Of a DNA stretch of 60,979 nucleotides, positions 2,273-36,212 are shown piece by piece. The stretch is from a virus: positions 1 to 60,979 of the IMG/VR virus record IMGVR_UViG_3300027904_000002; one strand, written 5' to 3'. A program made the position numbers and the translations under genes. The notes below the pieces were generated by a model that worked only from the letters and a program-made list of their open reading frames with translations, had not been told where the DNA came from and did no database searches. Within the stretch, counting starts at the first letter, position 1; every line of letters starts with the position of its first letter.

Positions 2273-2290
2273 ATCCGCCCCCTATTTTGG

Positions 2291-3684: not shown

Positions 3685-3733
3685 TTCTTATATTACCTTT
3701 CTTATTAAATATTATAACCAACAATTTGTTGGA

Positions 3734-4003: not shown

Positions 4004-4007
4004 AACA

Positions 4008-5069: not shown

Positions 5070-5089
5070 AATGGTCACTAATCATCACC

Positions 5090-5120
5090 ACAATAAAAAT
5101 AACAGACTATTAAAGTCTGT
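5090..5120 (-). terminator. Rho-independent terminator candidate (second of a tandem pair)
   Basis: Stem acagact (5102-5108) / agtctgt (5114-5120), followed on the minus strand by tatttttatt. Confidence 0.5.
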
Positions 5121-5145
5121 ATCTAGTGCAACTATCACTAATTTT

Positions 5146-5197
5146 TCAAAAATAAAAAGTGCCCGACATTTAACCTATGAGCCAATTAAATGTCGGG
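5146..5197 (-). terminator. Rho-independent terminator ending the tail-lysis-membrane operon
   Basis: 11-bp stem cccgacattta (5162-5172) / taaatgtcggg (5187-5197), followed on the minus strand by ctttttattttt. Confidence 0.75.
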
Positions 5198-5242
5198 GCT
5201 TTGAAAGGAGGTTGAGGCATGGACATATACTATTATAAATGA

Positions 5243-11099: not shown

Positions 11100-11100
11100 A

Positions 11101-13467: not shown

Positions 13468-13496
13468 TTAATTTTACCCATTTCAAAGAGTTTGCA

Positions 13497-13631
13497 TTAT
13501 TCAGAATATTCCTTGCCTGTAATATTAAAATAATTTTCAGCAGTTATAATTTGTGCTTTTACAGCAAGTTTTAATTGGTATTCAGTCCACAAACCTGCTT
13601 CATAATTTCTTTTTGCAATAGCTTCTGTCAT
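13497..13631 (-). CDS. XkdX-family small protein (44 aa)
   Basis: MTEAIAKRNYEAGLWTEYQLKLAVKAQIITAENYFNITGKEYSE matches the XkdX pattern (W..eql..aV.kg.IT.eeY..ITG). Below the ORF-track cutoff. Confidence 0.6.
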   Translation of the reverse strand: MTEAIAKRNYEAGLWTEYQLKLAVKAQIITAENYFNITGKEYSE

Positions 13632-13632
13632 T

Positions 13633-14043
13633 TTAGTTGCCCTCCATTGAATTGATTATTTCCATAACGCACAAAAATTCCAACGCTGCCGCAATTCGTT
13701 CTTCTGATGTAGGTGGCACTTCTTGCGGTCTGCTTTCAAATTCTTCGATAACGTCAAGAACTTCACGGTCTGACATTCCATCTTCTAACTCTAACCCCAT
13801 ACGTACATACATTTCAACAAATGAATTATACTCAGTGAAAATAGTTCCGTTTATTGCTCCACCACCAATGACCGCTTTTGAATTAGGTGCAGTTATCCAC
13901 GGGTGCATTTCAAAATATTCTTCCGCAGTCCATCTACTTTGACCCTTTCGCACTATTTCGCCTGTCATTGGATTTATTACGTCAGGGGTTCTTCCAATTG
14001 TTATTATGTCGTCTTGTTTGTTCCAAATTGCATATCTTGCCAT
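13633..14043 (-). CDS. Hypothetical tail-module protein
   Basis: 136-aa ORF, tightly packed with its neighbours. Confidence 0.65.
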   Translation of the reverse strand: MARYAIWNKQDDIITIGRTPDVINPMTGEIVRKGQSRWTAEEYFEMHPWITAPNSKAVIGGGAINGTIFTEYNSFVEMYVRMGLELEDGMSDREVLDVIEEFESRPQEVPPTSEERIAAALEFLCVMEIINSMEGN

Positions 14044-14057
14044 GTTTATTTTTCTCC

Positions 14058-15437: not shown

Positions 15438-15442
15438 TAATA

Positions 15443-15820
15443 TTACATCTCTATTATATTGATTTGCGCACCGTGTACCCACGCACCACGCTTTACACTT
15501 ATCAACCTTGCTTCACGCTTATTTATATAACCTGTAAAATTTACCATACCACCTGTGTATGTGTTGTATGCTGTATAAGTATTCACTCTGCCATTAGCAG
15601 ACACAGCATTTGCAAATTGTCTAAACCTTGCACTCATTTTATGGCTTTTAGGGAATTGTAATTCAACCCTATGCTTAGTACCGATAATAGTAAATTCCAT
15701 TAATCCGTCAAGAGGGTTTCTACCACTGCCCTCTGCGTGCAAATCCTCTGTGACAAAGTTATAGTTTTCTCTGAATATTAAATCTGAAAAGTCTTGACCG
15801 TTTACCAATAACAACGTCAT
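15443..15820 (-). CDS. Tail component in the distal-tail-protein position
   Basis: 125-aa ORF overlapping the tape-measure stop by 4 nt. The call is positional only. Confidence 0.4.
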   Translation of the reverse strand: MTLLLVNGQDFSDLIFRENYNFVTEDLHAEGSGRNPLDGLMEFTIIGTKHRVELQFPKSHKMSARFRQFANAVSANGRVNTYTAYNTYTGGMVNFTGYINKREARLISVKRGAWVHGAQINIIEM

Positions 15821-23833: not shown

Positions 23834-24319
23834 CTACGCCCTAATCAAAATGTGACTTGCTTTCGGCGAAACATCGAATTGGTGATTTTCGTAACCTGCA
23901 ATGCGAGTTGACCCATCTATCCAATCAAACCGTCTGCCACTTGGTACATTCTGTGTGATAATATCACGTTCTATGTTGGTAATCTCTGCATTTGTACCTG
24001 CGGGTATTTCAAGTTGAACAGCTTGTGGTATTATAACAGTATTTGTACTACCACCTACTTGTAAAGACCAAAAACCGTCAAGTTCATCCTCTGGTTTCGC
24101 TAACCATTCGTGATAGGGTATAAAAGTTAGCTGTGGTGTGTCAAATATCATGTATAAGTTAGCTTGATTTAAAATAACACCTGTTCTGATAGCTGTTGAT
24201 TCACGTTCTGATGTAAATACCGTTTCGGGTAAAATGCGTGGGATTAACTTAATGAGTCCTGTGGTTTTATGTACCCATCGTATTAAAACTGTTACAGGTC
24301 TGCGATAACGTCCGCTCAT
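23834..24319 (-). CDS. Head-tail joining protein (positional)
   Basis: 161-aa ORF in the connector block. Confidence 0.45.
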   Translation of the reverse strand: MSGRYRRPVTVLIRWVHKTTGLIKLIPRILPETVFTSERESTAIRTGVILNQANLYMIFDTPQLTFIPYHEWLAKPEDELDGFWSLQVGGSTNTVIIPQAVQLEIPAGTNAEITNIERDIITQNVPSGRRFDWIDGSTRIAGYENHQFDVSPKASHILIRA

Positions 24320-24321
24320 GG

Positions 24322-24720
24322 TTATATACCTGCGTGTACAAGCAAGTTATGAAGCGGAGTAAACGCCAAATATACACCGATTGCGTCTCTTATTTGCTTT
24401 TCATATTCAGCTTTATCAGTTACATCTTTTAGCGTATATGAGTAACTAAACGCTTTTTCGCTTGTAACGTCACCTGCTTTTGGAGCATTACTTTTTTCAA
24501 ATTGAATGGTCGCCAATCTTGCAACGCACATCTTTAGATATAAGGGAAAGTCACCATTATCAATACGCAATTCATCTAATGGAACATTCCTCTTGTTAAC
24601 AACCGCCCATGCTTGAGATTCAAAATGCCCCCATGCGTTTCTTGTGATAGGTGGATTATCCATACCTGCCATGTACATTTCAGTATAAAATTGATATGAA
24701 ATGAACGGAACGTATGCCAT
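24322..24720 (-). CDS. Head-tail adaptor-position protein
   Basis: ATG 24720 lies 7 nt after aggtg. It is the first gene after the capsid gene. Confidence 0.45.
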   Translation of the reverse strand: MAYVPFISYQFYTEMYMAGMDNPPITRNAWGHFESQAWAVVNKRNVPLDELRIDNGDFPLYLKMCVARLATIQFEKSNAPKAGDVTSEKAFSYSYTLKDVTDKAEYEKQIRDAIGVYLAFTPLHNLLVHAGI

Positions 24721-24805
24721 GATAATCACCTTTCAAGATTATTGTTTGTATCTGCTGAGTATCGTGTACTGCCGACACTCAGCAGAGTTATGTTTTGTTA
24801 GTTAC

Positions 24806-25798
24806 TTATGGAGTCGTGGGCGCAGCTACACCCAAAAACGCAAACGGTACAGGATTATTGCTCATTTGTGTTACGGGGTCGAGTACCTGCCAGCCTAATC
24901 TCATGTGTAAGATAAGGGCTGTTTTGTTTTCTTGTGCAAGATTATGTGATTTCCCTGCACCGTCAACAATGATACCGTCACGAGTCGTTCTGTAGGTGAT
25001 TTCCTCACGAATTGAATATACAAGACGTGTGAAGTCAGCCATAAGCATTGAAGCTTTTGTATAATCCCATGAACCGTTACGCACAAACCAAAGCGGAAAA
25101 CCGCCAAGTGCAAAAGGTGTACCCTCTTGAAGTGTAGCGTTGGGTGCAAAAATCGGTCTACCGTCACCATCGACCATGCCTTGTAATCTTGCTCTCATTT
25201 GAACAGCAGATACAAGTCCTGTCGGAGCGTAATCGGTAAGTTCGATTTTTTCCATTACACCGCCAACACCGAATAAGTCAACATAATTGTTAGCTGTCGG
25301 TGTTACTACAAGACCGTTGGTGCTTGCTCTAAGCCAGAGTGAATCAATGTCTGCCCACTCAACAGGCTTATCTACTCCAAAAATGATTGCACGGTCAATC
25401 GCACGACCAAATTGTGAAGCGAATACAGGAATGTCACCACCGATAACATCATAGCCATTAGCGAGAGCGTCTGCTAAATCAGCGTCACGGAATACTTTAA
25501 TAGCGGCAAATTCGCCAGCTTTAAGTAAACGTGGCTCAAACTTTTGTGTGGTAACTTTCTTTGTGTTTGTTTTTACTGACGGGACTGCTCCACCCTCGTT
25601 GTAACCATCAACTGCAAACGCAGAAGGCAATTCGCTACGAACATCAAGCCAAGTTTCCCTTGCTATCATGTTACGCATACGAGTGAAGTTAGAGAGAACA
25701 ACAGATTCCCTCATTGTGTTTTCAATTACCCCTGCTATAAATTCGGGGTGTAACAACCCACCATACTGAGGATGGGATGTAAAAGTTTCTTGTGGCAT
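24806..25798 (-). CDS. Major capsid protein (HK97-fold type)
   Basis: 330 aa, directly after a scaffold-like gene. The size and sequence style (e.g. FAAIKVFRDADLADAL) are typical of HK97-like capsid proteins. Confidence 0.8.
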   Translation of the reverse strand: MPQETFTSHPQYGGLLHPEFIAGVIENTMRESVVLSNFTRMRNMIARETWLDVRSELPSAFAVDGYNEGGAVPSVKTNTKKVTTQKFEPRLLKAGEFAAIKVFRDADLADALANGYDVIGGDIPVFASQFGRAIDRAIIFGVDKPVEWADIDSLWLRASTNGLVVTPTANNYVDLFGVGGVMEKIELTDYAPTGLVSAVQMRARLQGMVDGDGRPIFAPNATLQEGTPFALGGFPLWFVRNGSWDYTKASMLMADFTRLVYSIREEITYRTTRDGIIVDGAGKSHNLAQENKTALILHMRLGWQVLDPVTQMSNNPVPFAFLGVAAPTTP

Positions 25799-25818
25799 TT
25801 CTTATAATCCTTTCTGAA

Positions 25819-26415
25819 TTAAGAGTGCCGCCCGAATAATGCTTGTGTATAATTAGTAGGCTTCTTTACGTTGTTTTTTGAATTTGTACCACCTACATAC
25901 AAAGCACCCTTAGGCGGTTCTGGTTTAGTTTCTACATCATCTTTTTTATAAGGATTTTTTTCAAAATATTCTTTAGCAGTTGTAGCAAAATCTTTTTCTT
26001 TTGTTACAAGTTTATCAATGCGTATAGAATAAATCTCAATATCCTCAGGGTCAGTCACTTGATATGATTGGACAATTTTGTGCTTTTCGTTAGTAGATTT
26101 ATAATCTTCCAATTCAGCAATTCTTTTATCCTTTTCTTGGATTATCATATCAGGTGTGATTTGTTTTTCTTTCCATTCGGTAGCCATTTTATTGATAGTT
26201 TCGGGGTCAAGTCCGCTTTGTTCAAGCATTGACTTAAATACACCCATCATCTTTTTTTCGGCTGCTTCAATGGCTTTTTGTTCTGCTTGTGATACTATCG
26301 CATTTGTATCAACGGGTGTTTGAACATTTATAACAGGTGTCGCCTGTGTACCGCCCACTTGTGGCGTTGTAGCCTGTACAGGTTGTACAGTTGTTTGTGT
26401 AGCTTGTTCGCTCAT
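25819..26415 (-). CDS. Scaffolding protein
   Basis: ATG 26415 follows ggaaagga. The protein is helical, charged and Gln/Thr-rich, and the gene lies immediately upstream of the capsid gene. Confidence 0.65.
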   Translation of the reverse strand: MSEQATQTTVQPVQATTPQVGGTQATPVINVQTPVDTNAIVSQAEQKAIEAAEKKMMGVFKSMLEQSGLDPETINKMATEWKEKQITPDMIIQEKDKRIAELEDYKSTNEKHKIVQSYQVTDPEDIEIYSIRIDKLVTKEKDFATTAKEYFEKNPYKKDDVETKPEPPKGALYVGGTNSKNNVKKPTNYTQALFGRHS

Positions 26416-26528
26416 GGTATTCCTTTCCGTATTTAAACGCTCGTCAGCTATATTCCATGTTTTATGTCGTGTCCGACAATATGTAGTTCTATAATCACCA
26501 CTATACCACATGATATAGTGTTAATCAA

Positions 26529-26897
26529 CTAATTTTTATCGGGAAACATCTCCCTAATTTCTTTTCTGTGTTTCCTGCTTGCAACTCTCAATTCTTGTGC
26601 CGCTTGAGGGTTTTCGTCAACTTCCTCGTAATTGATTATCTTAATAGCCGCTTGGTCTATCGTGCCACCTAAATCATCAAAGTACATGGTAGCGTATGCG
26701 TTTGCACGTTGCTCTGATGGTACATCGGGTATGTCAACGATTTTAAGATTGATTAACCTACCCTCTGTGATACGCTCCTCAAACGATTCCAAGACAGCTT
26801 CAAGTTGGTCTGCTTCAATAATCATCTGATTGTTTTCGTCAAACTTAGTCCAGATGTCGCCGTTAAGTTCTTCGTAATATAGTTGTTTTCTTGCCAT
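26529..26897 (-). CDS. Hypothetical acidic protein
   Basis: 122-aa ORF. Confidence 0.65.
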   Translation of the reverse strand: MARKQLYYEELNGDIWTKFDENNQMIIEADQLEAVLESFEERITEGRLINLKIVDIPDVPSEQRANAYATMYFDDLGGTIDQAAIKIINYEEVDENPQAAQELRVASRKHRKEIREMFPDKN

Positions 26898-26908
26898 GAT
26901 TTTCCTCC

Positions 26909-27841
26909 TTATGGCATACTATCGTTAGTAATCCATGTCATAGATGTGCGAATGTCGTTATTTGCACTTGCGATATTAACTGTTGGTCTTACTGTACTTC
27001 TTGCAGTTCCGCTTGCTTCGCTCACTTGTAATCTCAAGTTTGCAGCAGCAGGAACAATAGCCGATGTAGCTGTCGCAGTAGGTCTAAATCCTATAGGAAT
27101 TGTCCATAGATTTTGTGCTGTTGTAATAGCACCTGCCGCTTTTTCGTTAGGAATATCCATTACAACAACTTGACCAACTCTTGACAAAACAGGAGTGTTT
27201 GTGTCTGTAAATATCGTTGGCGCTTGTGCCGAAACAGACAATCCGTTTGCACCAGACCATTGCCTAAAAACTATTGACCTACCAACAGTAGCGTCACTTA
27301 TTTGTCCGAACCAAAAAGCGTGTCTCTGTGACGCTGTTCCAGATGTTTGAGTCAAAGCAACCGCTGAACTAAAGCTAAAGCTAAAAACATCACCTTGCTC
27401 ACATTCTGACACAGCAAAAATGCTAGGACTAATTACCCCCAAATTCATACCTTTATTATTCCACGTTTTTAATATTTCAGCTCCTCTATACAGTTGAATC
27501 CGAATACTTTCATTACTTACAACATTTTTATTTCCCGCTCCTATAAATAATGCCCATGTTCCCTTATTTGAAACAGTTAAGTATACACCATTTATAAGGT
27601 TTGTTCCTTTTTCAAAAACAGGAGTAAGGTCAGTAAATGTTTCTAAACTGGCGACTGCCGTTACGCTTCTACTCGCATAATTCCCCTCACAGTACGGCAA
27701 CCCCATCAATCCTGCTCTGCCTAGTATGATGTCAAGGTTTTCACCGTCTTTACCAAACACACCGTTGGTAGCAGTCACGGGGGCATAGGGGTTTCCCTCA
27801 TGGTCTAATGCTATGCCTAGTGGTAATTCGTGTATGTTCAT
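26909..27841 (-). CDS. Fibre-like protein with C1q/TNF-like jelly-roll motifs (family member 4)
   Basis: LTPVFEKGTNLINGVYLTVSNKGTWALF ... ECEQGDVFSFSF parallels the C-terminus of 27851..29113. Confidence 0.55.
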   Translation of the reverse strand: MNIHELPLGIALDHEGNPYAPVTATNGVFGKDGENLDIILGRAGLMGLPYCEGNYASRSVTAVASLETFTDLTPVFEKGTNLINGVYLTVSNKGTWALFIGAGNKNVVSNESIRIQLYRGAEILKTWNNKGMNLGVISPSIFAVSECEQGDVFSFSFSSAVALTQTSGTASQRHAFWFGQISDATVGRSIVFRQWSGANGLSVSAQAPTIFTDTNTPVLSRVGQVVVMDIPNEKAAGAITTAQNLWTIPIGFRPTATATSAIVPAAANLRLQVSEASGTARSTVRPTVNIASANNDIRTSMTWITNDSMP

Positions 27842-27850
27842 AAATATCTC

Positions 27851-29113
27851 CTATGCTATTCTGCGGAATAAAAAGCTTAAAGGGGGCGATGTAGGGGTTA
27901 TTGAAGTTCTTGCGATTGCGCTATTGATTTGAACACGTATGCGCTCACCTTGTTTTAAATCTTCAACGTATACTATCGACATAAAAGAACCCGCATTAGC
28001 TGCACTAACATCATGTCTGAAATGTCGAGATTTTTCGGAAATAGTTGTTATGCTTTCTGTGCTTGCCAACACCATAACATGAACATTACCTGCCGTAGTT
28101 GGTGCAAACAAAAATCTTCTAGTTGATAAAACATAAGTACCCTTTTCGGGTGCTATTAAAAACGTACCATCTACCATATTTATGCCCGATTCAAAAACTG
28201 GTGTTATTGCCTCGTCAACACCTGCCGCTAAACTTCTGTCTTGAAAACGACCACGCATTGACGGCATATCCATCTTAATAACAGCAGGACTACCATCAAA
28301 CGGTTTCATTGTAGGTACTGCCGCAGGGTAATTCAACCAATTCCAATAAGTACCATCCCATTGGAAATCCCAATCGCCAACAGTTAACAAAGACGCTATT
28401 ATCGGTTGACCATTCCAACGTATTTCAGCAGCACCTGTAGTTGTGACGTTCAATCTCGGTGTTGCGTGTGTGTTTGCTACTGTTAACCGTATTGTCACTC
28501 TCGGATTGCCAACACGGACGAAGCCTGTAATCGTAGACGCTTTGTCTTGTGTTCCTGCTGCTGTGTTGCTTGTGCCATACCATATATCTTGAGCGTTAAT
28601 CCACAACTTTAAGCGGTCACGGTTTGCTTGTGGTAGTTGTGTTGTTGTTGGTGCTGTTGTCGGTGTTGATATGTTTTGTAAAACTCGACCTGCTTGTTCG
28701 GATGTTAATGTTTGAGCAGCGTCAAAACGTAATCTTGTATTGAACAGGTGCAACATTTTATTCCAAATACTTTGAAGTGTGTTTAGTAATGTTACGTTTG
28801 TTGTAGCCGCAGGTGCTGCACTATCTGCGGTTGGAGTAGCTAAACTAAACGTAGTGTCTCTTACTTGCTGTGGGTCGAAAACGCCACCTGTTCCACCATC
28901 ACCATCAACAGGAAACTTAACAAATTTTGTTCCGTCATATCCGATTTTATAAACTTTCGGAGGATTTCCAACAACGGAAACAACTTGTCCGTTAAATGCT
29001 TCACCTACAAGCAAATAATTATCAAGCATTGCTTCATTTTCAAATGTGCTTGAAACATCAAGTGGTCGTCTATTTAATCTTTTAAAGCTACCTGCTTGAT
29101 TAATAGTTGACAT
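27851..29113 (-). CDS. Fibre-like protein: shared N-terminal module plus C1q/TNF-like C-terminus (family member 3)
   Basis: The N-terminus MSTINQAGSFKRLNRRPLDVSSTFENEAMLDNYL parallels that of 29123..30487. The C-terminus reads ITPVFESGINMVDGTFLIAPEKGTYVLS ... DLKQGERIRVQI. Confidence 0.55.
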   Translation of the reverse strand: MSTINQAGSFKRLNRRPLDVSSTFENEAMLDNYLLVGEAFNGQVVSVVGNPPKVYKIGYDGTKFVKFPVDGDGGTGGVFDPQQVRDTTFSLATPTADSAAPAATTNVTLLNTLQSIWNKMLHLFNTRLRFDAAQTLTSEQAGRVLQNISTPTTAPTTTQLPQANRDRLKLWINAQDIWYGTSNTAAGTQDKASTITGFVRVGNPRVTIRLTVANTHATPRLNVTTTGAAEIRWNGQPIIASLLTVGDWDFQWDGTYWNWLNYPAAVPTMKPFDGSPAVIKMDMPSMRGRFQDRSLAAGVDEAITPVFESGINMVDGTFLIAPEKGTYVLSTRRFLFAPTTAGNVHVMVLASTESITTISEKSRHFRHDVSAANAGSFMSIVYVEDLKQGERIRVQINSAIARTSITPTSPPLSFLFRRIA

Positions 29114-29122
29114 AACTAACTC

Positions 29123-30487
29123 CTATATTGTCAGTGTAAAACGCTCATTTGAAATAAACGGAAACTCGGGAAGTAAATAAAGTATTCTATAATCAACGGC
29201 GGTAAATCCATTTGCTCCTTGAACAGAAACTATAATTTCAGTAAACAATGACTTCACATCACTTCCAAGACCTGCTTGAACAATGCTTGTTGGAAACCTT
29301 AAACTGCTTGGATATGCGAATACAACACCACGACCACCTGTAGGCACTTCTGCAATCATTTGAAAATTCTCACCAACATTTAATTGACTGCTTGCTAAAG
29401 CACGAATAAACGCTGAATTGTTAGGTATAGTTCCGTCTGCCAATACACCCCAAAAAGACCTGCGTTGTGGAGTGTATGTTACGTTATTTGATGTAATCGA
29501 ACCTGCTTCAATTCTTCCAACCGGGTCTGGGTTTCCCTCACTGTCGTCTTTAACCGCTCCTTGAGCAAAATCAACAATAGCTTGATATGTTCTGTTAGTA
29601 GTCAGTTGAAAAGTTGTATCGGAGTGAGCAATCGGAGTAGCACCTGTATAAATGTTTGTTCCATCACGAGTAACCCTATATCCTGTTGCCCCACCACTAT
29701 CCCCTGCGTTCCAATCAGGCGTTAGTGTAGGTGTGATATTTTCCCCTATTTCTCTTGCAAGCGGAGCAGTACCACTAAGCGACAAAGTAGGTGCTGTATA
29801 TTTTGCAGGAACACGAGGGTTTAATATTTTACGCATTGTTGCCAATAGGGTATCTGTATCAGATATTACAGTTCCGCTTGCTAACCCTAAATTTGCATTA
29901 GTAACTGGAATAGTCGCCCCAGATATAATATCATCAAAACTGCCCCCAACTTCACCTGCCTGCCAAACACGGTTTAAATCCCATGTTATAGCACCAGAAG
30001 TAGCATTTATTTCTTTTACAACGTATCTTGTATAATTTCCGTTTTGCGTTTCGTCAACACGAACATAAGCGAAATCATTTACAGATATGCTTTTCCATGC
30101 AGATTTATTTGTGGGTAAGTCCGCTTTTGTATTGAAAGTTCCTGCATATTGACCAAGTTCTGCGATTCCGTCTATTCTATCAGCTAATTCACCTAATTTT
30201 GCCCTTATATCTGCATGAGATAATTCTGATATATTATGAGCATTTATCGCAGTATCTATATCTTCTGTATCACCACTTATAGGTGAATAAGTAAAATCCT
30301 CGTTTATGATAAAGACCAAAGGTGTGTTTTCAGCAGTACGAACACTGACTATTTGTCCGACATAAGCCGCACCTGTTGCAAGATAACTTTCAAACAAAGC
30401 CATATTGTTAAACGTTACGTCTGGGTCTAAATTTCCTCTAAATAATCTTTTAAATTGACCTGCTACGTTTATTGCATTAACTGACAT
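29123..30487 (-). CDS. Fibre-like protein (family member 2)
   Basis: The N-terminus MSVNAINVAGQFKRLFRGNLDPDVTFNNMALFESYL is shared with 27851..29113. The C-terminal ~225 aa are paralogous to 30500..31477. Confidence 0.55.
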   Translation of the reverse strand: MSVNAINVAGQFKRLFRGNLDPDVTFNNMALFESYLATGAAYVGQIVSVRTAENTPLVFIINEDFTYSPISGDTEDIDTAINAHNISELSHADIRAKLGELADRIDGIAELGQYAGTFNTKADLPTNKSAWKSISVNDFAYVRVDETQNGNYTRYVVKEINATSGAITWDLNRVWQAGEVGGSFDDIISGATIPVTNANLGLASGTVISDTDTLLATMRKILNPRVPAKYTAPTLSLSGTAPLAREIGENITPTLTPDWNAGDSGGATGYRVTRDGTNIYTGATPIAHSDTTFQLTTNRTYQAIVDFAQGAVKDDSEGNPDPVGRIEAGSITSNNVTYTPQRRSFWGVLADGTIPNNSAFIRALASSQLNVGENFQMIAEVPTGGRGVVFAYPSSLRFPTSIVQAGLGSDVKSLFTEIIVSVQGANGFTAVDYRILYLLPEFPFISNERFTLTI

Positions 30488-30499
30488 ATCATATTCTCC

Positions 30500-31477
30500 T
30501 TAAATCGTCAATCTGAACACTTCCGAACTTGCGTAGGGAAATTCTGGTATTAAATATAGAACTCTATACATAACTGCTGTAAATCCATTTGCACCACGCA
30601 CAGGCACAGCAATTTCCGTGAACCAAGATGTCACATTTAACCCCAAAGACACTTGAATTATACTGCTTGGTGGTCTTAAAGACTGTGGATAACAGAACAC
30701 TAACCCTCTTTGACCTGCGTTTACTTCAACTGTTATCTGAGTTCCATTTTGGGGATTATCCAAACTTTGCGATAACGCTCTTACGCTATCTGAATCAGTT
30801 GGAAACTGTGGTGTAAATAAAGCGGAATAAAACGCTCTGCGGAATGGCGTATATGAAACCGTATTGCTTGTAACCGTTCCTGCTTCAATACGTCCTGTAT
30901 CATCTGGTTCACCTGCACTATCTTCTTTGATTTCGCCTTGTGCAAAATCAGCTTGTGCAAAATAATTTCTATTTTCAGTCAACTGGAATGTTTCTGTTAT
31001 TGGTACAGCACTTGTTCCAGTGTGTATATTTATTGCATTTCTTACTAATCTATATTGTTCTAAAGCACCACCATCATTTTGAGTAAATGTAGGCGTAAAA
31101 GTTGTCGTTATATTCTCACCTATTTCTCTTGAAAAAGGGACTGTTCCTGTAAGCGATAAAGTTGGTTTAATATATACTGGTGGTTCAATAGGTCTTAATA
31201 TAAATCTTAATATTGAATACAAATCTCTTTCACTTTTAATTTCTGTGCCTAAAGGTATTCCAGCATACGGATTTGTTACTATAAAGCTATCTCCACCCAT
31301 GAAAACTTCACGAGCATCGTTTGTGCCACCTGCACCTTTGTTTAATTCAGCGATTATATTACGTTCATCTTCATCATCTATAGAAACAAATCCATCAACA
31401 TAATCGAAAAGTATACGCCCATGTTGTATAGGAACTTCAACATCTGGAGTTTTTCTATATGCAATACTGAATATCAT
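30500..31477 (-). CDS. Fibre-like protein (family member 1)
   Basis: The C-terminal region PTLSLTGTVPFSREIGENIT...GRIEAGTVTSNTVSYTP...GANGFTAVMYRVLYLIPEFP aligns with 29123..30487. Confidence 0.55.
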   Translation of the reverse strand: MIFSIAYRKTPDVEVPIQHGRILFDYVDGFVSIDDEDERNIIAELNKGAGGTNDAREVFMGGDSFIVTNPYAGIPLGTEIKSERDLYSILRFILRPIEPPVYIKPTLSLTGTVPFSREIGENITTTFTPTFTQNDGGALEQYRLVRNAINIHTGTSAVPITETFQLTENRNYFAQADFAQGEIKEDSAGEPDDTGRIEAGTVTSNTVSYTPFRRAFYSALFTPQFPTDSDSVRALSQSLDNPQNGTQITVEVNAGQRGLVFCYPQSLRPPSSIIQVSLGLNVTSWFTEIAVPVRGANGFTAVMYRVLYLIPEFPYASSEVFRLTI

Positions 31478-31478
31478 A

Positions 31479-32006
31479 TCAGAATACCTCCACCGTTAAT
31501 ATTTCTCTTGAAGCTACATCAACATAATCGTTTAATTCCGTAGAAAAATATTGAAACACATTATATGTTATTCCATCAGGAGTAGTTCTTAAATCTTCTC
31601 GAATTATAGGCGTAGAATTATTCGGAGTCTTAACATACACATGAGTTGCAAGAGGTGGTTTCGGGGGTGATTCTTCCGCAAAACCACTTTCAACTACGGA
31701 TATGAATGTAGAATTTATTGTGCGTAAATTGCCCGCCATGACGGAAACTTCAATTGTGCCGACTTCTTGTAGCATTTCATTCGGAATAGGCATAATTCCA
31801 TTTTCGTCAAGAAAATAATGACCTACTGCATAATTATGTTTTAAAATTATCGCAGGAGTTAAATTGCTCCAATGTTCGCTAAACGTAAACTGAATAAACG
31901 CATAATTTTGTGTCATTCTATAAATCGGAGTTACATCGACACGACTTATATTTCTGTCACTTACGTTTATCTTTATCAGAATATCATTTACCGTTAACTC
32001 GTACAT
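31479..32006 (-). CDS. Hypothetical structural protein (weak BppU-N-like look)
   Basis: 175 aa, with start and stop overlapping its neighbours. The domain resemblance is only an impression. Confidence 0.4.
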   Translation of the reverse strand: MYELTVNDILIKINVSDRNISRVDVTPIYRMTQNYAFIQFTFSEHWSNLTPAIILKHNYAVGHYFLDENGIMPIPNEMLQEVGTIEVSVMAGNLRTINSTFISVVESGFAEESPPKPPLATHVYVKTPNNSTPIIREDLRTTPDGITYNVFQYFSTELNDYVDVASREILTVEVF

Positions 32007-32392
32007 TATTTTCTCCCACGCTTGCGACGTAAAACTATGCTACTTGTGCGATATTCGTTTTTAGGCTTATTTTTGCCCTCTGGCTTGCCTTTTCGCTGTG
32101 GGGGTGTATGTTTTGTAGGGGCAACATCAGGAACGCTTACAGGCGATTCTTTTGGCTCTGGTGACACTTCAGCTTTTTCGGGTTTAACAGCCGATGTCGG
32201 CATTACGGTTTCGTGCCGATAAGAACGCAAGAAGTCCGCTTCTTTTTTTGTAATATATTTTTCGTCAAGCAATCTTTGTATCACCGTCATGGGTATCGGA
32301 ATCTTGCCAAGTGTTTCAAAATCTTTGTTACCGTTAAGGATTTCTTCGATAAACTTCTTTTGGCTACTGTTTAAATTTTTGGGGATTGTCAT
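32006..32392 (-). CDS. Basic Lys/Pro-rich protein
   Basis: ATG 32392 follows aaggag (9-nt spacer). The C-terminal tail is rich in K, P, E and R. Confidence 0.6.
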   Translation of the reverse strand: MTIPKNLNSSQKKFIEEILNGNKDFETLGKIPIPMTVIQRLLDEKYITKKEADFLRSYRHETVMPTSAVKPEKAEVSPEPKESPVSVPDVAPTKHTPPQRKGKPEGKNKPKNEYRTSSIVLRRKRGRK

Positions 32393-32536
32393 TATTTTAA
32401 TCTCCTTTGGCTTCAAATTCAGTACACATCATATCTTCGCTAATTTGTTCTGTGCAAAATTGGCTTTCGGGATTTGTGCAGACGTTTTCACCAAACATAC
32501 TGTGACTACTTACAAACCACATACAATCCCTACAAG

Positions 32537-34021
32537 TCATTGTTTCTGACTCCCTGCAAAATGGAGTTCGGACTCGATAGCCATATCTTCATAGAAGTCT
32601 AAGTTTGTATCGTTGCCTTGCGGTTGTTGTGTACCACCAAACATATTCACACGTTCAACAGCTTTTTTTATCATTTCGTCATTTATGCTGTGTAGGTCTT
32701 TTGACATTTCGTACATATAAGCTGCCGCAAGTCCTGTTGGTACTTCACCCTTGCTTTGCAGACGTAAAAGAGCGTTTACAGTACGGTCAAGAGCGTCCAA
32801 CTGTTCTTGTTCTGTGGTCATGATACTGTCGCCTATTACAAATGTCACATCATCTTTATTAACATTGCTATTTCCAAGTGAATAAGCATGGGTTATCTCG
32901 GAATATATAACAACAGCTTCTCTTAAAACCTTTTCAAGCTGTTTCTGTATCGTATTTACAAGCACGAAAAATCTTTGTCTACCGTGCATTATTTCCGTTG
33001 CTGTTTTTTCAACACTTGAAGTTTCGCTTAGTATGCCAAAACTTAAACCTACCGATATTTCAATTTGTCGCAATAATTCTTGTTTGCGTTTCTGATAAGC
33101 GTCAACTCTTATTTCGGGATTGAATATAATCGGATTAAGTTCTTGTCCTAATCCTGTGTCAATTCCCATAAACACATCACTGCCACTATCATTGATACGA
33201 CCACTACTGTCAACCTCTGCCATTAGTTTATCAATAATAATTCGGCTACGAGCGTTTTTAAACTCTCTCACTAATAACGAGTCAAGTTCATCAGCAAGCC
33301 TTATCAGCTCAATGGCTCTATGGAAAACAGCTTCATTATTCGGTGCAATCAATTCTACAAACCACGCTCTTGTAGTTTGAAAATTAGATGTAGGCTCTAT
33401 ATATTTCCACGCTTCAACTTCGGATAAAGCCACTTCACTACCAAGCATATTCTTATCACTTGACCGAAACGCTTTATTGATTATGGTGTATTCTCCGTAT
33501 TCAGCATTTTCCTCTTTTACAAAATCCAAGTGGGATAATAGCGTATAAAACAATTCACCGATTTGTTGTCTGTCAACTACGACCACTTCTGACAACTCAC
33601 CCGAAACATCATATCGTACAGGAAAATAATTACCTGCCCCCACCGCATTAACTGCTATTTTATCCCCTGCGATATACGGTCTTAACAAAACGCTACCAAC
33701 AGCACCCATTTGCTCTACAATAGCACCTAAACCGTTTATCAGCTCTTGATACCATTCGTTAAGCATTTCATTGTTTTGTATTTCGGACTCAAATTCGCTA
33801 ACGCAATTTCTGGCAATTTCCGCACAAATAGAATAAGCCAAGTTTAGGCTTGGCACTTGAGGGGTATTCCAATTTGCCTCTCCCAAAAACAGGCTTTTCC
33901 ACAATTCAATATCGTCAACTTCCTCTTGTGAAAGAAGTATCTCTACATCTAATGCGCTTGCAACGTCACGTTTTGGAATCATGCTTTTAATCCACCTTAC
34001 GATATTCGACAACAGCGACAT
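32537..34021 (-). CDS. Portal protein (SPP1 Gp6-like)
   Basis: 494 aa. The position after terL and the N-terminal style (IELWKSLFLGEANWNTPQVPSLNLAYSICAEIAR) are typical of Gp6-type portals. Confidence 0.8.
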   Translation of the reverse strand: MSLLSNIVRWIKSMIPKRDVASALDVEILLSQEEVDDIELWKSLFLGEANWNTPQVPSLNLAYSICAEIARNCVSEFESEIQNNEMLNEWYQELINGLGAIVEQMGAVGSVLLRPYIAGDKIAVNAVGAGNYFPVRYDVSGELSEVVVVDRQQIGELFYTLLSHLDFVKEENAEYGEYTIINKAFRSSDKNMLGSEVALSEVEAWKYIEPTSNFQTTRAWFVELIAPNNEAVFHRAIELIRLADELDSLLVREFKNARSRIIIDKLMAEVDSSGRINDSGSDVFMGIDTGLGQELNPIIFNPEIRVDAYQKRKQELLRQIEISVGLSFGILSETSSVEKTATEIMHGRQRFFVLVNTIQKQLEKVLREAVVIYSEITHAYSLGNSNVNKDDVTFVIGDSIMTTEQEQLDALDRTVNALLRLQSKGEVPTGLAAAYMYEMSKDLHSINDEMIKKAVERVNMFGGTQQPQGNDTNLDFYEDMAIESELHFAGSQKQ

Positions 34022-34039
34022 TTATTCACCGCCTAAAAA

Positions 34040-34714
34040 TCACGCAGTTCTAATTTCGCCCCAATATTCAAGTTCTAACTGCTTTCTTTTCAAAAATGCT
34101 TCCTCAAATGTATCAAAAGTTCCAAACTGTTTCATTTTGCCATTTACAGGAAACCTTACTCTCCATTTTTGCGTGGATTTTACAAGTCCTACACCTGCAC
34201 ATCCCGACGTATTTTGTTTTGGTAATTTTTGGTTTCTTGCTTGTTCCTCATCTGTTGCCCATCTAACATTGCCCGGCTCATAATTACCTCTTTTGTTAGG
34301 GTATCTGTCTATTGAATATCCCTCTTTACCAAAGTTTTCTAACTTAGAAACATAATCATACCAAGACAAAAAATCATTTATCCAATTTTGATATACTGTT
34401 ACACCGACTGCTCCATAAAGCTCATAGCTGTCATTATTTTTATTATAACACCGTTCTTTCATATTTCTCCAAACTATGTAAATTGGAGAATCTGCAAATC
34501 CGTGTTTTGTGCTTCTTTGTATAACTAATTCTCTTTTATAACATCCACATGAAACAATCCTGCCCGAAAGTAATCCACGACTTGCTATTGATTTAACGTT
34601 TCCACAATCACATTTGCACAACCAATAAGCCTTATAGTGCTTGTCTGTTTTGTCAAATTGTAAAACTAATAATCTGCCAAATCTTTGACCTGTTAAGTCT
34701 TTTCTCTCACTCAT
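34040..34714 (-). CDS. Free-standing AP2-domain homing-endonuclease-like protein
   Basis: LTGQRFGRLLVL...WLCKCDCGN...SCGC, then IDRYPNKRGNYEPGNVRWATDEEQARN and an AP2-like SGCAGVGLVKSTQKWRVRFPVNGKMKQFGTFDTFEEA. Confidence 0.7.
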   Translation of the reverse strand: MSERKDLTGQRFGRLLVLQFDKTDKHYKAYWLCKCDCGNVKSIASRGLLSGRIVSCGCYKRELVIQRSTKHGFADSPIYIVWRNMKERCYNKNNDSYELYGAVGVTVYQNWINDFLSWYDYVSKLENFGKEGYSIDRYPNKRGNYEPGNVRWATDEEQARNQKLPKQNTSGCAGVGLVKSTQKWRVRFPVNGKMKQFGTFDTFEEAFLKRKQLELEYWGEIRTA

Positions 34715-34832
34715 TATTGTAACCTCCTATAGTTACTCCTAAAGTTTTGAGTGGGAAACGGTGTTAGGATTCACCGCTTGTCGTGTTGCAATCACTATCC
34801 CACTATATATATTTACACAATTATACATTGTC

Positions 34833-34862
34833 ATTCTATCATATAGTGCAAACTGTTGTCAA
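34833..34862 (-). promoter_or_regulatory. Promoter of the AP2-endonuclease cassette
   Basis: On the minus strand: TTGACA (34862-34857), 18 nt, TAGAAT (34838-34833). A ~110-nt leader with stems gtggga/tcccac and cggtg/caccg follows. Confidence 0.55.
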
Positions 34863-34903
34863 CAATATCTTGTTGTGTTCATAATTTCGTAACACAAGAT
34901 ATA

Positions 34904-34929
34904 GAAAAAGCCACTATTTTCAAGTGGCT
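34904..34929 (-). terminator. Terminator after terL
   Basis: Stem agccact (34909-34915) / agtggct (34923-34929), with a T-run on the minus strand (plus strand aaaaa at 34905-34909). Confidence 0.6.
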
Positions 34930-34968
34930 TGTGTATATTTATTCAGTTAAAATGGATATATATGCAAT

Positions 34969-36212
34969 TTATTTTATAAAATTCTTTATTCTGTGCGTGA
35001 AAGTATAGCAGAAACTGTCATAGTCATCGACAGGCGTACTATAATCGTCAAGAATAGTATCTGGTTTATCTGGATGCCACACTAATTGAGTTAAAGAGTC
35101 AACCAACGATTCACAATCATCTGTCATGTGAAATCTGCCAAGTGCCATTAAATCTGTTAATGCCTGTATTCTTTCAATACCCTCTGGTTTTTTAGCATAC
35201 GCCACTTGTAATAATGGATATTTTTTTCTTACAGATATTCTCAATTTATTACCCATATATTGCGCTCCGTCAAAAAAAACACAACGCACATTCCCATAAG
35301 TCATCATAATTTTATCTAAAAAATCAAGAAACAACTTTTCTATTTGCTCTGGTGTTGTATCTTTAGCAGGATGTCTTTCAGTTGCTAAAGCATGAACTCC
35401 ACGCCAATTTTTAGTTATACCAGAAGCAGATAGAGCGTGATTTGACCGATTTTCACCGCAATCAAGAGCTACGATAATTTCTGCAAATCTTTCAATGTGA
35501 CCTGTTTTTTTATCGAATACGGGTTTTATAAATTTATTGGGGTTTTCTGCAAAAAGCGGAAAAACAATGCCGGAACCTACAGCCCATTCACCCTCACAGT
35601 AGCGTTTGTACCATACAGAGCCAACGGGGTACATAGATAAAATAAAATCTCTTTCATTTTCGGGTAAAAATGGATTATCCCATATCGTATATTTCTGATA
35701 GTAAACATATTTTGGGTTATCATCAATTAGTTTCTTAACATGATGTGTAGGAAAAAGCGGATTTAGTGTACCGTCTGCAACGCTATATGGCTTATCAAGG
35801 CATGGTATCAGTTCGACTACAACTTCCTCTGGGAATGTAGCCAATTCATCAAGATTTAGATACTTAATACCTGCACCTTTAACTTTTAACGCTTGTTTTA
35901 TATTGTTTGTTCCAAAACAAGTAACTATTTGTCCGAACATTCTTGCTTCATTTTTTGAGTTAATTTCAGAAACTAAAGCCTTGCCGTACATTTGTTGTAG
36001 CGGACGTATTATGTTAGTTGTTAATGTTTGTTTTGTGTGTCCTAATAAAAATACTTCACCCTCTAAATCAATTCTTTCACGAATACGTTTAGGGATTAAA
36101 AATCTGTTTAGGTAGGTTATTTGCCCGTTCTTCTTGCCCCTCCAGCCAAATTTATTTTTTTAGTAGCATTTCTAAGATATTCCTGCTGATGGTCTGAAAA
36201 TGATAAGTTCAC
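34969..36212 (-). CDS. terL: Terminase large subunit, reading frame broken inside the Walker A codons
   Basis: The frame starting at GTG 36212 (SD aagggggtg) encodes ...KKINLAGGARRTGK and then TAA at 36117-36119. The -1 frame continues ITYLNRFLIPKRI...YLNLDELATFPEE (Walker B-like) to 34969. Skipping the two bases ta (36119-36118) would restore GARRTGKT. Confidence 0.8.

What the first reader, a model, noticed from the sequence alone, without database searches (positions are those of the whole stretch)
26909..32006. Five-gene fibre-like paralog family with C1q/TNF-like motifs embedded between the portal and scaffold genes
Head modules normally run portal, (minor head protein), scaffold, capsid. 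Here ~5 kb of large genes intervenes. They form a modular family:
- 29123..30487 and 30500..31477 share a ~225-aa C-terminal region (PTLSL.GT.P..REIGENIT...GRIEAG..TSN.V.YTP...GANGFTAV.YR.LYL.PEFP).
- 27851..29113 and 29123..30487 share an N-terminal module (MS.N.....G.FKRL.R..LD....F.N.A....YL).
- 26909..27841 and 27851..29113 share a segment with the C1q/TNF jelly-roll pattern (TPVFE.G.N...G.(F/Y)L....KGT(Y/W)(V/A)L ... (K/E)QG(E/D)..(R/F)(V/S)).

These could be head fibres or decoration adhesins, or a second receptor-binding set encoded in the wrong module. Either case is poorly described.
Basis: partly seen in the sequence, partly recalled or inferred. Interest (0 to 1): 0.65.

Follow-up and report, generated by a model that had tools for sequence, protein, structure and literature searches.

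The report
Portable fibre-adhesin cassette among head genes
A siphophage carries, between its portal and capsid genes, a horizontally mobile block of predicted virion fibre/adhesin proteins built from swapped modules, and the same block sits among head or packaging genes in about ten otherwise unrelated phages, which suggests a second adhesion device mounted on the head or neck rather than the tail tip.

Summary
On the minus strand, portal (32537-34021) and putative scaffold/MCP (25819-26511, 24806-25798) are separated by about 5.5 kb of tightly packed genes. Four of them are linked by shared modules:
- g325/g454: 47% identity over 314 aa.
- g454/g420: 45% identity over an N-terminal 72 aa.
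- g420/g310: 30% identity over about 140 aa.

The fifth gene, g175, is not a paralog but is a conserved syntenic partner.

AlphaFold2 plus Foldseek gives a TNF/C1q-type jelly roll for the g420/g310 module. This model has moderate confidence. The g325/g454 C-module is predicted as two tandem Ig-like sandwiches, with pLDDT above 90.

The 70-aa N-module defines a large uncharacterised family of 1,542 cluster representatives. It almost always sits at residue 1 and is followed by collagen, foldon, coiled-coil, LRR, RCC1 or tail-tip domains.

The gene order C-only, then N+C, then N+variable recurs in about ten metagenomic or isolated phages. There it lies next to TerL, portal, protease or MCP genes of different families, and never next to TMP/Dit/Tal. 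Between the window and contig L003, only the cassette is conserved.

Best reading: auxiliary trimeric fibres or adhesins anchored by the N-module, probably on the head or neck. Their location on the virion is untested. This is a new variant of a known kind.

The parts
31479..32006 (-). g175 (175 aa). Not a paralog of the others, but a conserved upstream partner of the cassette. It has an N-terminal beta-rich domain of about 110 aa followed by a Pro-rich linker.
   Evidence: phrog_19695 (unknown function), E 1.6e-3. Homologues lie directly upstream of the C-module gene in L003 (43% identity) and in FP_Brigit AUV56644 (jackhmmer 2e-34).
30500..31477 (-). g325 (325 aa). A 'C-only' protein: a unique N-terminus of about 95 aa, then the C-module (residues 96-325, coordinates 30503-31192).
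   Evidence: blastp against g454: 47% identity over 314 aa, E 6e-87. phrog_35541, E 1e-14. C-module HMM, E 2.6e-115.
29123..30487 (-). g454 (454 aa). An 'N+C' protein with four parts: N-module (residues 1-72, coordinates 30272-30487); helical segment 74-114; small beta domain 144-175; and C-module of two tandem Ig-like sandwiches (residues 225-454, coordinates 29126-29815).
   Evidence: AF2 with a 13-sequence alignment gives pLDDT above 90 for residues 225-454. Best Foldseek PDB matches are Fab, PECAM, FN3 and CARDB, E>=1.5e-3. BFVD gives 37 hits at E<=1e-3, mostly uncharacterised gut-virome proteins.
27851..29113 (-). g420 (420 aa). An 'N+variable' protein with three parts: N-module (residues 1-72, coordinates 28898-29113); a poorly predicted shaft with helix 106-131; and a TNF/C1q-like jelly-roll head (residues 281-420, coordinates 27854-28273).
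   Evidence: blastp against the g454 N-terminus, E 9e-12. AF2 gives pLDDT 60-83 for the head. Foldseek PDB gives 254 hits at E<=1e-3, all of TNF/C1q type or phage knobs.
26909..27841 (-). g310 (310 aa). It has no N-module. It carries the TNF/C1q-like module (residues about 42-182, coordinates 27296-27718) and an extra C-terminal domain (residues 183-310, coordinates 26912-27295).
   Evidence: blastp against g420 residues 281-420, E 8e-9. TNF-module HMM, E 1e-52. C-terminal part matches phrog_3971 (unknown function), E 9e-6.
32006..32416 (-). g136. A small basic-tailed protein between the portal and the cassette. Whether it belongs to the cassette is uncertain.
   Evidence: No family match. No homologue in the related loci.
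26529..26897 (-). g122. A small acidic protein between the cassette and the putative scaffold. Whether it belongs to the cassette is uncertain.
   Evidence: Only a weak match to phrog_4883, E 5.7e-3. No homologue in the related loci.
32537..34021 (-). Portal protein. This is the upstream boundary of the cassette.
   Evidence: phrog_533, E 9.8e-68. tblastn finds Clostridium phage portals at 29-30% identity, E 1e-43.
24806..26511 (-). Putative scaffold (25819-26511) and HK97-type major capsid protein (24806-25798). This is the downstream boundary of the cassette.
   Evidence: MCP matches phrog_10 (1.7e-21) and PF05065 (1.8e-11). The scaffold is assigned from position and composition only.

Best explanation
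The block g175-g325-g454-g420-g310 is a horizontally mobile cassette of auxiliary virion fibre or adhesin proteins. It is co-transcribed with the head genes.

Proposed mechanism (inferred, not shown):
- The roughly 70-aa N-module of g454 and g420 is the attachment or oligomerisation domain that fixes the proteins to the particle.
- Helical or low-complexity shafts project the distal heads.
- The heads are tandem Ig-like sandwiches in g454 and g325, and a TNF/C1q-like jelly-roll knob, presumably trimeric, in g420 and g310.
- The heads bind surface glycans or proteins of the host or its environment, giving reversible first-contact adhesion that adds to the tail-tip device (Tal with an F5/8 type C module, 11101-13467).
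- The anchor-less paralogs g325 and g310 may join through the module each shares with its anchor-bearing neighbour. This is speculative.
- The cassette sits among head or packaging genes in every context that could be placed, and never next to TMP/Dit/Tal. The C-module also occurs in a tailless phage. The most likely site is therefore the capsid surface or the neck.
For: Shown:
- Significant modular paralogy.
- Tight operon structure with SD sites and no internal terminator.
- TNF/C1q-like predicted fold for the g420 head.
- Confident tandem beta-sandwich fold for the C-module.
- The N-module profile finds 1,542 cluster representatives at E<=1e-3. Nearly all matches start at residues 1-20 of proteins 78-1358 aa long.
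- Sixty of the longer N-module proteins carry Collagen, Fibritin_C, Phage_fiber_rpt, Collar, Phage_tail_C, YadA_head, LRR, DUF285, RCC1 and coiled coils downstream. This is the classic pattern of a fixed anchor with variable distal domains.
- Comparing g420 with its L003 ortholog: N-module 62.5% identity, shaft 17%, head 31%.
- The order C-only, N+C, N+variable recurs in L003, L009, L010, L016, L019 and L021. The minimal pair of C-only then N occurs in FP_Brigit, L006, L015, L022 and MT835569.

Observed contexts:
- Window: portal > cassette > scaffold > MCP.
- L009: TerL-portal-HNH-MuF > cassette.
- L010: cassette > scaffold-MCP.
- FP_Brigit: TerL > cassette > portal.
- L006: protease-MCP fusion > cassette.
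- L015: portal-protease > cassette.
- L016: cassette > ParB-TerL-portal.
- L003: cassette > head-tail adaptor.
- L021: minor capsid protein > cassette.

Other supporting points:
- The portal and MCP families differ among these phages (phrog_533/113/21/64; phrog_10/1005/S78-fusion).
- Between the window and L003, only cassette genes are similar.
- The C-module is present in the tailless Salisaeta phage SSIP-1, as ORF56.
- In the window the three modules occur only in the cassette, not in the tail-tip genes.
Against: - No homologue has an experimentally determined location, and no PDB sequence relative exists.
- Named BFVD structural neighbours of g454 are labelled tail fibre, tail protein, minor tail protein gp31 C-terminal domain or collagen repeat.
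- In L004 the C-module ends an 892-aa collagen-like protein inside a cluster of collagen/Peptidase_S74 fibre genes of unknown module.
- Two N-module proteins carry PF24243, a tail tip domain.
- The g420 model is of low overall confidence (mean pLDDT 44, 5-sequence alignment). The N-module is modelled only at pLDDT about 60.
- 55 of the 147 listed new N-module hits are shorter than 150 aa. This fits a stand-alone decoration protein, but equally a small chaperone or adaptor encoded after a fibre gene.
- Gene position is not proof of virion position.
Confidence: 0.5

Rival explanations
1. They are ordinary tail or neck-to-tail side fibres (an accessory receptor-binding set) that merely happen to be encoded in the head gene block. 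The N-module would dock on a tail, collar or baseplate component.
For: - Annotated structural neighbours are tail fibre or tail proteins, including crAss-like tail proteins.
- Pfam partners of the N-module include Phage_tail_C, Collar and Phage_fiber_rpt.
- In L004 the C-module sits in a cluster of collagen/S74 fibre genes.
- TNF-like knobs are known on tail structures: the phi812 central spike (9eul) and the cyanophage A-1(L) short tail fibre (8ke9).
Against: - In about nine placed contexts the cassette adjoins TerL, portal, protease or MCP genes, and never TMP/Dit/Tal.
- The hosts of the cassette include a siphophage (the window) and a myophage (FP_Brigit), whose tail tips are unrelated.
- The C-module occurs in the tailless phage SSIP-1.
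- The window already has a Tal with a discoidin-type module plus 445-aa and 405-aa tail-tip proteins, none of which carries these modules.
- 'Tail' labels in metagenomic records are automatic.
Confidence: 0.3
2. They are Hoc/pb10/tentaclin-like decoration proteins with the opposite polarity. The conserved C-terminal Ig-like sandwich pair would be the capsid anchor, and the N-terminal parts would be the exposed, variable ends. The proteins would be monomeric, not trimeric fibres.
For: - Across relatives the C-module is the constant part and the N-terminal portions vary. Examples are g325, P0006, the L004 892-aa collagen protein, FP_Brigit 529 aa, and SSIP-1 ORF56, which is C-module only.
- The C-module fold is Ig-like.
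- Tentaclins are proposed to anchor by a C-terminal Ig domain (PMC10743442).
Against: - No homology to the FP_Brigit tentaclin AUV56679 (hhalign probability 0.25%; blastp not significant).
- No C-type lectin domain, and no reverse transcriptase was recognised in the window, although that was never specifically searched for.
- This reading does not explain the equally conserved N-module, the TNF-like C-terminal heads of g420, or the conserved-N/variable-C pattern of g420 orthologs.
Confidence: 0.12
3. They are not virion components. The cassette would be a moron-like cargo, for example secreted or cell-surface proteins, or assembly chaperones, carried inside the late operon.
For: - Horizontal mobility.
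- Lower GC3 than the flanking portal and MCP genes: 0.19-0.28 against 0.32-0.34.
- Many N-module proteins are very short, which is reminiscent of chaperones encoded downstream of fibre genes.
Against: - No obvious signal peptide was seen on reading the N-termini. No predictor was run.
- The genes are tightly spaced (0-12 nt) inside the head operon, with no terminator-like site.
- The domain repertoire of relatives is that of fibres: collagen, foldon, tail-fibre repeats.
- About 5 kb of a 61-kb genome would be a heavy cargo.
Confidence: 0.06

Closest known systems
Bacillus phage phi29 head fibre gp8.5
   Same: - A fibre gene embedded in the head gene block: scaffold gp7, MCP gp8, head fibre gp8.5, then tail and connector.
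- An N-terminal base binds the capsid, with a trimeric shaft and a distal end (own knowledge: Xiang and Rossmann 2011).
- It is dispensable and has an accessory adhesion role.
   Different: - No sequence relationship: hhalign of the N-module profile against gp8.5 gives probability 0.2%.
- phi29 has one gene, whereas here there are 4-5 modular genes.
- The distal domains differ: Ig-like or TNF-like here, against a helix-turn-helix supercoil in gp8.5.
Ig-like capsid decoration proteins (T4 Hoc, T5 pb10) and tentaclins (Baykov et al. 2023, PMC10743442)
   Same: - Exposed Ig-like sandwiches on phage particles are thought to mediate weak adhesion to mucus or host surfaces.
- pb10 combines a small N-terminal capsid-binding domain with a C-terminal Ig-like domain (own knowledge).
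- These proteins are common in gut phages.
   Different: - No detectable homology to the FP_Brigit Hoc-like tentaclin.
- No C-type lectin domain or DGR.
- g454 additionally has helical shaft segments and an N-module shared with a TNF-headed paralog.
TNF/C1q-like knobs of viral fibres: phi812 central spike knob (9eul), cyanophage A-1(L) short tail fibre CBD (8ke9), PRD1 P5 spike head, Sf6 tail-needle knob
   Same: The g420 head is predicted as the same jelly-roll fold. In all of these proteins the fold is a trimeric distal knob at the end of a fibre. PRD1 P5 is a capsid-vertex fibre on a tailless phage (own knowledge).
   Different: - Sequence identity is only 10-18%, and there is no Pfam C1q or TNF match.
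- The known phage examples, apart from PRD1, are tail structures.
- Here the gene lies in the head block, and the module is duplicated into an anchor-less paralog (g310).
Ancillary carbohydrate-binding modules of Gram-positive siphophages (neck passage structure, MTP extensions, evolved Dit/Tal)
   Same: These are extra adhesion domains at exposed virion positions other than the true RBP. They are proposed to aid host binding (PMC7533335).
   Different: - Those modules are extensions of neck or tail proteins, or NPS genes near the tail genes.
- Here there are free-standing genes in a mobile cassette with its own N-terminal module.
- No CBM family match was found.
T4 fibritin (wac) collar whiskers
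   Same: Trimeric fibres attached by their N-terminus at the neck. One N-module relative carries a Fibritin_C foldon.
   Different: No homology was shown. The window proteins lack a foldon match.

Membership tests
C1q/TNF superfamily (jelly-roll trimer) | Ten-strand jelly-roll beta-sandwich fold | tested here: met
   AF2 model of g420 residues 281-420 has pLDDT 60-83. Foldseek PDB gives 254 hits at E<=1e-3, led by the phi812 knob, APRIL, RANKL, 4-1BBL, Caprin-2 C1q, C1QL3 and TNF-alpha. Target-normalised TM scores are 0.6-0.72. This is a predicted structure from a 5-sequence alignment, so the result is provisional.
C1q/TNF superfamily (jelly-roll trimer) | Sequence-profile match to Pfam C1q (PF00386) or TNF (PF00229) | tested here: not met
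   No Pfam hit at E<=0.1 for g420 or g310. The profile of the module finds nothing in PDB sequences at E<=10.
C1q/TNF superfamily (jelly-roll trimer) | Homo- or heterotrimeric assembly about a three-fold axis | not testable with these tools
   Only monomer prediction was available.
phi29-type head fibre (gp8.5) | Homology to gp8.5 | tested here: not met
   hhalign of the 158-sequence N-module profile against gp8.5 gives probability 0.2%.
phi29-type head fibre (gp8.5) | Gene located inside the head morphogenesis block | tested here: met
   Window: portal > cassette > scaffold > MCP. The cassette also lies in the head or packaging block in L003, L006, L009, L010, L015, L016, L021 and FP_Brigit.
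phi29-type head fibre (gp8.5) | Physical attachment to the capsid surface | not testable with these tools
   Needs virion proteomics and cryo-EM.
Tentaclins (Baykov 2023) | N-terminal C-type lectin domain with a beta-hairpin, often a DGR target | tested here: not met
   No C-lec match. The g454 N-terminus is a small alpha/beta module. The FP_Brigit tentaclin is a different gene, AUV56679, next to the RT.
Tentaclins (Baykov 2023) | Conserved C-terminal Ig anchor domain homologous to the tentaclin Cterm_Ig | tested here: not met
   hhalign of A4 against AUV56679 gives probability 0.25%. blastp of FP_Brigit AUV56645 against AUV56679 gives E>1.
Ig-like phage decoration/adhesion domains (Hoc, pb10, Big_2, FN3 class) | Ig-like beta-sandwich fold exposed on a structural protein | tested here: inconclusive
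   The fold is met: two sandwiches, pLDDT above 90, with best PDB matches Fab, PECAM, FN3 and CARDB. However, these matches reach only E>=1.5e-3 with low TM scores. No Pfam Ig, Big or FN3 match was found. Exposure on the particle is untested.
Siphophage tail-tip receptor-binding proteins | Gene adjacent to TMP, Dit and Tal | tested here: not met
   The tail-tip genes lie at 8569-20097. The cassette is 7-12 kb upstream, on the other side of the capsid, connector and tail-tube genes. None of the related loci places the cassette next to a TMP.

The most novel reading that the evidence does not exclude
The N-module is a general, portable capsid- or neck-docking domain of about 1,500 sequence clusters. 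It would let phages with unrelated portal and capsid families mount interchangeable adhesin heads (Ig-like, TNF-like, LRR, RCC1, collagen-tipped) on the head. This would be a self-contained second adhesion system, distinct from the tail, that moves horizontally as a cassette of C-only, N+C and N+variable genes. It may form mixed assemblies between anchor-bearing and anchor-less paralogs, as C1q A/B/C chains do.
Probability: 0.3. Interest if true: 0.75.

Novelty: new variant of a known kind. Interest (0 to 1): 0.55.

Why it matters
- Host range and retention of phages in an environment are usually attributed to tail-tip proteins.
- A widespread, mobile set of head- or neck-mounted fibres with swappable heads would be a second, largely unannotated layer of adhesion. 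All five cassette genes, and nearly all relatives, are 'hypothetical' or match PHROGs of unknown function.
- The closest isolated relative (FP_Brigit) and MT835569 come from the human gut. Most other relatives are metagenomic contigs whose sample origin I could not check.
- This matters for predicting hosts from metagenomes, for the mucus-adherence model of gut phages, and for engineering phage particles that display binding domains.
- The N-module family also offers a simple sequence marker for finding such proteins.

Tried and rejected
- **Nucleotide search of 24000-36000 against 50,697 phage records:** no match.
- **tblastn of g310 against the phage records:** nothing. g420 gave only weak hits to Evtepia phage 'tail protein', E 1e-3.
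- **Word-indexed protein searches:** very few relatives. g454 gave 13 hits, g420 gave 2, and the TNF-module profile gave 1. The AF2 alignment for g420 was therefore shallow.
- **PDB sequence searches:** single sequences and profiles of all modules and of g175 gave nothing meaningful.
- **Tentaclin / Hoc-like membership:** the FP_Brigit paper trail led to tentaclins, but the FP_Brigit tentaclin is another gene and is not homologous.
- **phi29 gp8.5 homology:** rejected.
- **Close relatives of the window phage:** the portal query found none in viral or metagenome contigs. Presence or absence of the cassette among near relatives could therefore not be examined.
- **Genome (prophage) scan with the C-module alignment:** nothing found, so no host assignment.
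- **Alignments A2 and A5:** too divergent for the search for related loci.
- **DGR in FP_Brigit locus L001:** no TR/VR pair. The repeat search instead turned up a repeated C-terminal peptide.
- **L003 541-aa upstream protein:** it is not a capsid fusion of the L006 type.
- **Antisense ORF 29652-30035 (+):** 'conserved' in relatives only because it mirrors g454. It is not considered a gene.

Full report
**1. What is in the sequence**

The window is nearly a whole siphophage genome. Its late genes lie on the minus strand in this order:
- a TerL fragment (34969-35991)
- an HNH endonuclease (34040-34714)
- portal (32537-34021; phrog_533, E 1e-67)
- g136
- g175 (31479-32006)
- g325 (30500-31477)
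- g454 (29123-30487)
- g420 (27851-29113)
- g310 (26909-27841)
- g122
- a putative scaffold (25819-26511)
- an HK97-type MCP (24806-25798; phrog_10, PF05065)
- connectors and a tail tube protein
- a 1426-aa tape measure
- a putative Dit, assigned from its position only (no family match)
- a 788-aa Tal-like tail protein with an F5/8 type C module
- two further tail-tip proteins
- an endolysin

The phage with the closest portal, Clostridium phage phiCD38-2, has the standard order: portal, MuF-like minor capsid protein, a small ORF, scaffold, coat. The roughly 5.5 kb between portal and scaffold in the window is therefore unusual. No MuF-like protein was found in that interval.

The five cassette genes each have a GGAG-type ribosome-binding site and are spaced 0-12 nt apart. 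No terminator-like site lies on the coding strand between the portal and the MCP. They are therefore almost certainly expressed with the head genes.

**2. The paralogy claim**

blastp confirms all three stated relationships:
- g325/g454: 47% identity over 314 aa, E 6e-87.
- g420/g454: 45% identity over the N-terminal 72-74 aa, E 9e-12.
- g310 (46-182) / g420 (281-420): 30% identity over 148 aa, E 8e-9.

These involve three different modules linked in a chain:
- an N-module, in g454 and g420
- a C-module, in g325 and g454
- a TNF-like module, in g420 and g310

g175 has no similarity to any of them. In the window these modules occur nowhere else, including the tail-tip genes.

**3. Predicted folds**

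*g454.* AF2 with a 13-sequence alignment models residues 225-454 at pLDDT above 90 as two consecutive beta-sandwiches. Foldseek against the PDB finds only generic tandem Ig-like proteins (Fab, PECAM, FN3, CARDB) at E>=1.5e-3. Against BFVD it finds 37 viral proteins at E<=1e-3. These are mostly uncharacterised gut-virome proteins. The few named ones are 'tail fiber', 'tail protein', 'minor tail protein gp31 C-terminal domain', 'collagen triple helix repeat' and 'hyaluronidase', and several come from crAss-like phages.

*g420.* The model is poor overall (mean pLDDT 44, 5-sequence alignment). Its C-terminal 140 residues are all-beta at pLDDT 60-83. Foldseek gives 254 PDB hits at E<=1e-3 that belong almost uniformly to the TNF/C1q class or are phage knobs:
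- phi812 central spike knob (2.6e-6)
- APRIL, RANKL, 4-1BBL, TNF-alpha
- Caprin-2 C1q, C1QL3
- cyanophage A-1(L) short tail fibre CBD

Target-normalised TM scores are 0.6-0.72.

It extends by homology to g310 and to three L003 proteins. No Pfam C1q or TNF sequence match exists, and the trimeric state could not be tested.

*N-module.* In both models it is a small beta-alpha-beta-beta-beta unit at pLDDT about 60.

**4. Relatives and modular logic**

The family is rare at BLAST level. g454 has 13 relatives among 5.8 billion clusters, and g420 has only itself and one other.

A profile of the N-module searched exhaustively finds 1,542 cluster representatives at E<=1e-3. The match almost always begins at residues 1-20, in proteins of 78-1358 aa. 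Of the 147 listed new hits, 55 are shorter than 150 aa.

Sixty of the longer members carry DUF285, LRR, RCC1, Phage_tail_C, Phage_fiber_rpt, Collagen, Collar, Fibritin_C, YadA_head and many coiled coils downstream. This is the signature of a fixed N-terminal attachment or oligomerisation domain followed by trimerising shafts and variable binding heads.

Domain-wise identity between the window and contig L003 fits this picture:

| Protein | Region | Identity |
|---|---|---|
| g420-type | N-module | 62.5% |
| g420-type | shaft | 17% |
| g420-type | head | 31% |
| g454-type | all four regions | 67-81% |

**5. Synteny**

The gene order C-only, then N+C, then N+variable is repeated in several loci:

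| Locus | Protein lengths (aa) |
|---|---|
| L003 | 327, 456, 331, plus two extra TNF-module proteins |
| L009 | 368, 451, 262 |
| L010 | partial, 455, 257 |
| L016 | 332, 453, 482 |
| L019 | 394, 463, 339+ |
| L021 | 362, 341+ |

A minimal pair of C-only then N occurs in:
- FP_Brigit (529, 104)
- MT835569 (481, 102)
- L006 (306, 140+)
- L015 (234, 340)
- L022 (549, 90+)

L004 (892 collagen+C, 602, 146) and L005 (308, 345, 85) instead follow the full C-only, N+C, N order.

A g175 homologue precedes the C-module gene in L003 and in FP_Brigit.

Where neighbours could be identified, they are head or packaging genes of several different families:
- L009: TerS-TerL-portal(phrog_113)-HNH-MuF, then the cassette.
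- L010: the cassette, then scaffold(phrog_673)-MCP(phrog_1005).
- FP_Brigit, a myovirus: TerL, cassette, portal.
- L006: protease-MCP fusion, TIG-domain proteins, then the cassette.
- L015: portal(phrog_21)-protease(phrog_53), then the cassette.
- L016: the cassette, then ParB/MTase-TerL-portal(phrog_64).
- L003: the cassette, then a head-tail adaptor.
- L021: a homologue of the FP_Brigit 'minor capsid protein', then the cassette.

In none of them is the cassette next to a tape measure, Dit or Tal.

The C-module also occurs as ORF56 of the tailless, membrane-containing Salisaeta phage SSIP-1, next to structural protein gp57.

Between the window and L003, the only similar proteins are the cassette proteins (43-72% identity). 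Connectors, tail tube and other structural genes show no BLAST similarity. Likewise, FP_Brigit and MT835569 share the cassette at 76-86% identity, but MT835569 showed no BLAST match to FP_Brigit's TerL or portal nearby. The cassette genes also have lower GC3 (0.19-0.28) than the portal and MCP (0.32-0.34). The cassette therefore moves horizontally as a unit.

**6. Interpretation**

*Shown:*
- a modular, co-transcribed, mobile gene set
- predicted products with a shared N-terminal module, shaft-like regions, and Ig-like or TNF-like globular heads
- a conserved association with head or packaging genes

*Inferred:*
- the products are virion fibres or adhesins
- the N-module is the anchor
- they sit on the head or neck
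- they bind host or environmental surface molecules as an accessory to the tail-tip device

I give about 0.85 to 'virion-exposed fibre or adhesin proteins' and about 0.5 to the full statement including head or neck location.

The main rival is tail or side fibres encoded out of place, at about 0.3. It draws on the 'tail' labels of structural neighbours and on L004, where the C-module ends a collagen-like protein within a fibre gene cluster.

A reversed-polarity decoration model of the Hoc or tentaclin type, with a C-terminal Ig anchor, is possible for the C-only proteins. It does not explain the N-module or the C-terminal TNF heads. Tentaclin homology was tested and not found.

A non-virion role is unlikely.

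**7. Comparison with known systems**

In function and layout, the closest analogues are:
- the phi29 head fibre gp8.5: a gene inside the head block, N-terminal capsid base, trimeric shaft
- Ig-like decoration proteins (Hoc, pb10)
- TNF-like fibre knobs (PRD1 P5, Sf6 needle knob, phi812 spike)
- the ancillary carbohydrate-binding modules of Gram-positive siphophages (PMC7533335)
- T4 fibritin whiskers

Membership in any of these families by sequence was tested where possible and not met (gp8.5; tentaclin; Pfam C1q, TNF and Ig). Only the TNF/C1q fold class is met, and only on a predicted model.

**8. Novelty and score**

Phage fibres, decoration adhesins and modular exchange are all well known. 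What is new here:
- an undescribed N-terminal module family of substantial size
- a recurrent three-gene architecture
- its consistent placement in the head or packaging block of phages with unrelated capsid and portal families

I rate it a new variant of a known kind, with interest 0.55. It would rise to about 0.75 if the proteins prove to be a portable head-mounted adhesion system.

Noticed in passing
window 34969-36200 (minus strand): TerL looks split by a frameshift at its Walker A motif. One frame reads '...INLAGGARRTGK*'. The next frame continues '...GKKNGQITYLNRFLIPKRIRE...MYGKAL...' into the 340-aa ORF, which lacks the ATPase P-loop. This could be an assembly error in an A-run or a genuine frameshift.
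   Followed up: partly
window 34040-34714 (-); L009 5433-6035; L010 5083-5721; L006 3128-3652: Free-standing HNH endonuclease genes sit inside the head or packaging block close to the cassette in four different phages. Three are phrog_374, at 38-41% identity to each other; the L006 one is HNH_3. They could be packaging-associated HNH proteins, or homing endonucleases that help the neighbouring cassette spread.
   Followed up: no
L001 (FP_Brigit) 7706-7755, 9699-9748, 10611-10660: Three adjacent cassette proteins of FP_Brigit end in the same peptide of about 16 aa, IATDxEVxEMLxxVF. They are the g175-like 183-aa protein, the N-module-only 104-aa protein, and the next 294-aa protein. The peptide is encoded by a 50-nt direct repeat at 66-70% identity. 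It may be a shared docking tail. It is not seen in the window proteins.
   Followed up: partly
window 32006-34021 versus L011 (phiCD38-2) 2046-5670: No MuF-like minor head protein was detected between portal and scaffold in the window. The phage with the closest portal has one there. g136, with a strongly basic C-terminus, occupies the first position after the portal.
   Followed up: no
L003 1-1626: The cassette relative L003 starts with a truncated ORF of at least 541 aa that has no family match and has beta-helix-like repeats (for example 'VSVNANGINIGTAENITLSNGKDIILSPSGRV'). It lies directly upstream of the g175-like gene and may be a further fibre or spike component of that cassette.
   Followed up: partly
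window 28340-28600 (g420 residues about 175-258): The middle of g420 contains a motif, 'YGTSNTAAGTQDKASTITGF...LNVTTTGAAEIRWNGQPI...WDGTYWNWL'. It gave weak tblastn hits (32% identity, E 1e-3) to annotated 'tail protein' genes of Evtepia and NatCom gut phages. It was modelled at very low confidence.
   Followed up: no
window 29652-30035 (+): A 127-aa antisense ORF inside g454 appears 'conserved' in L003, L009 and L010, but only as the mirror image of the conserved g454 gene. It is very unlikely to be a gene.
   Followed up: yes
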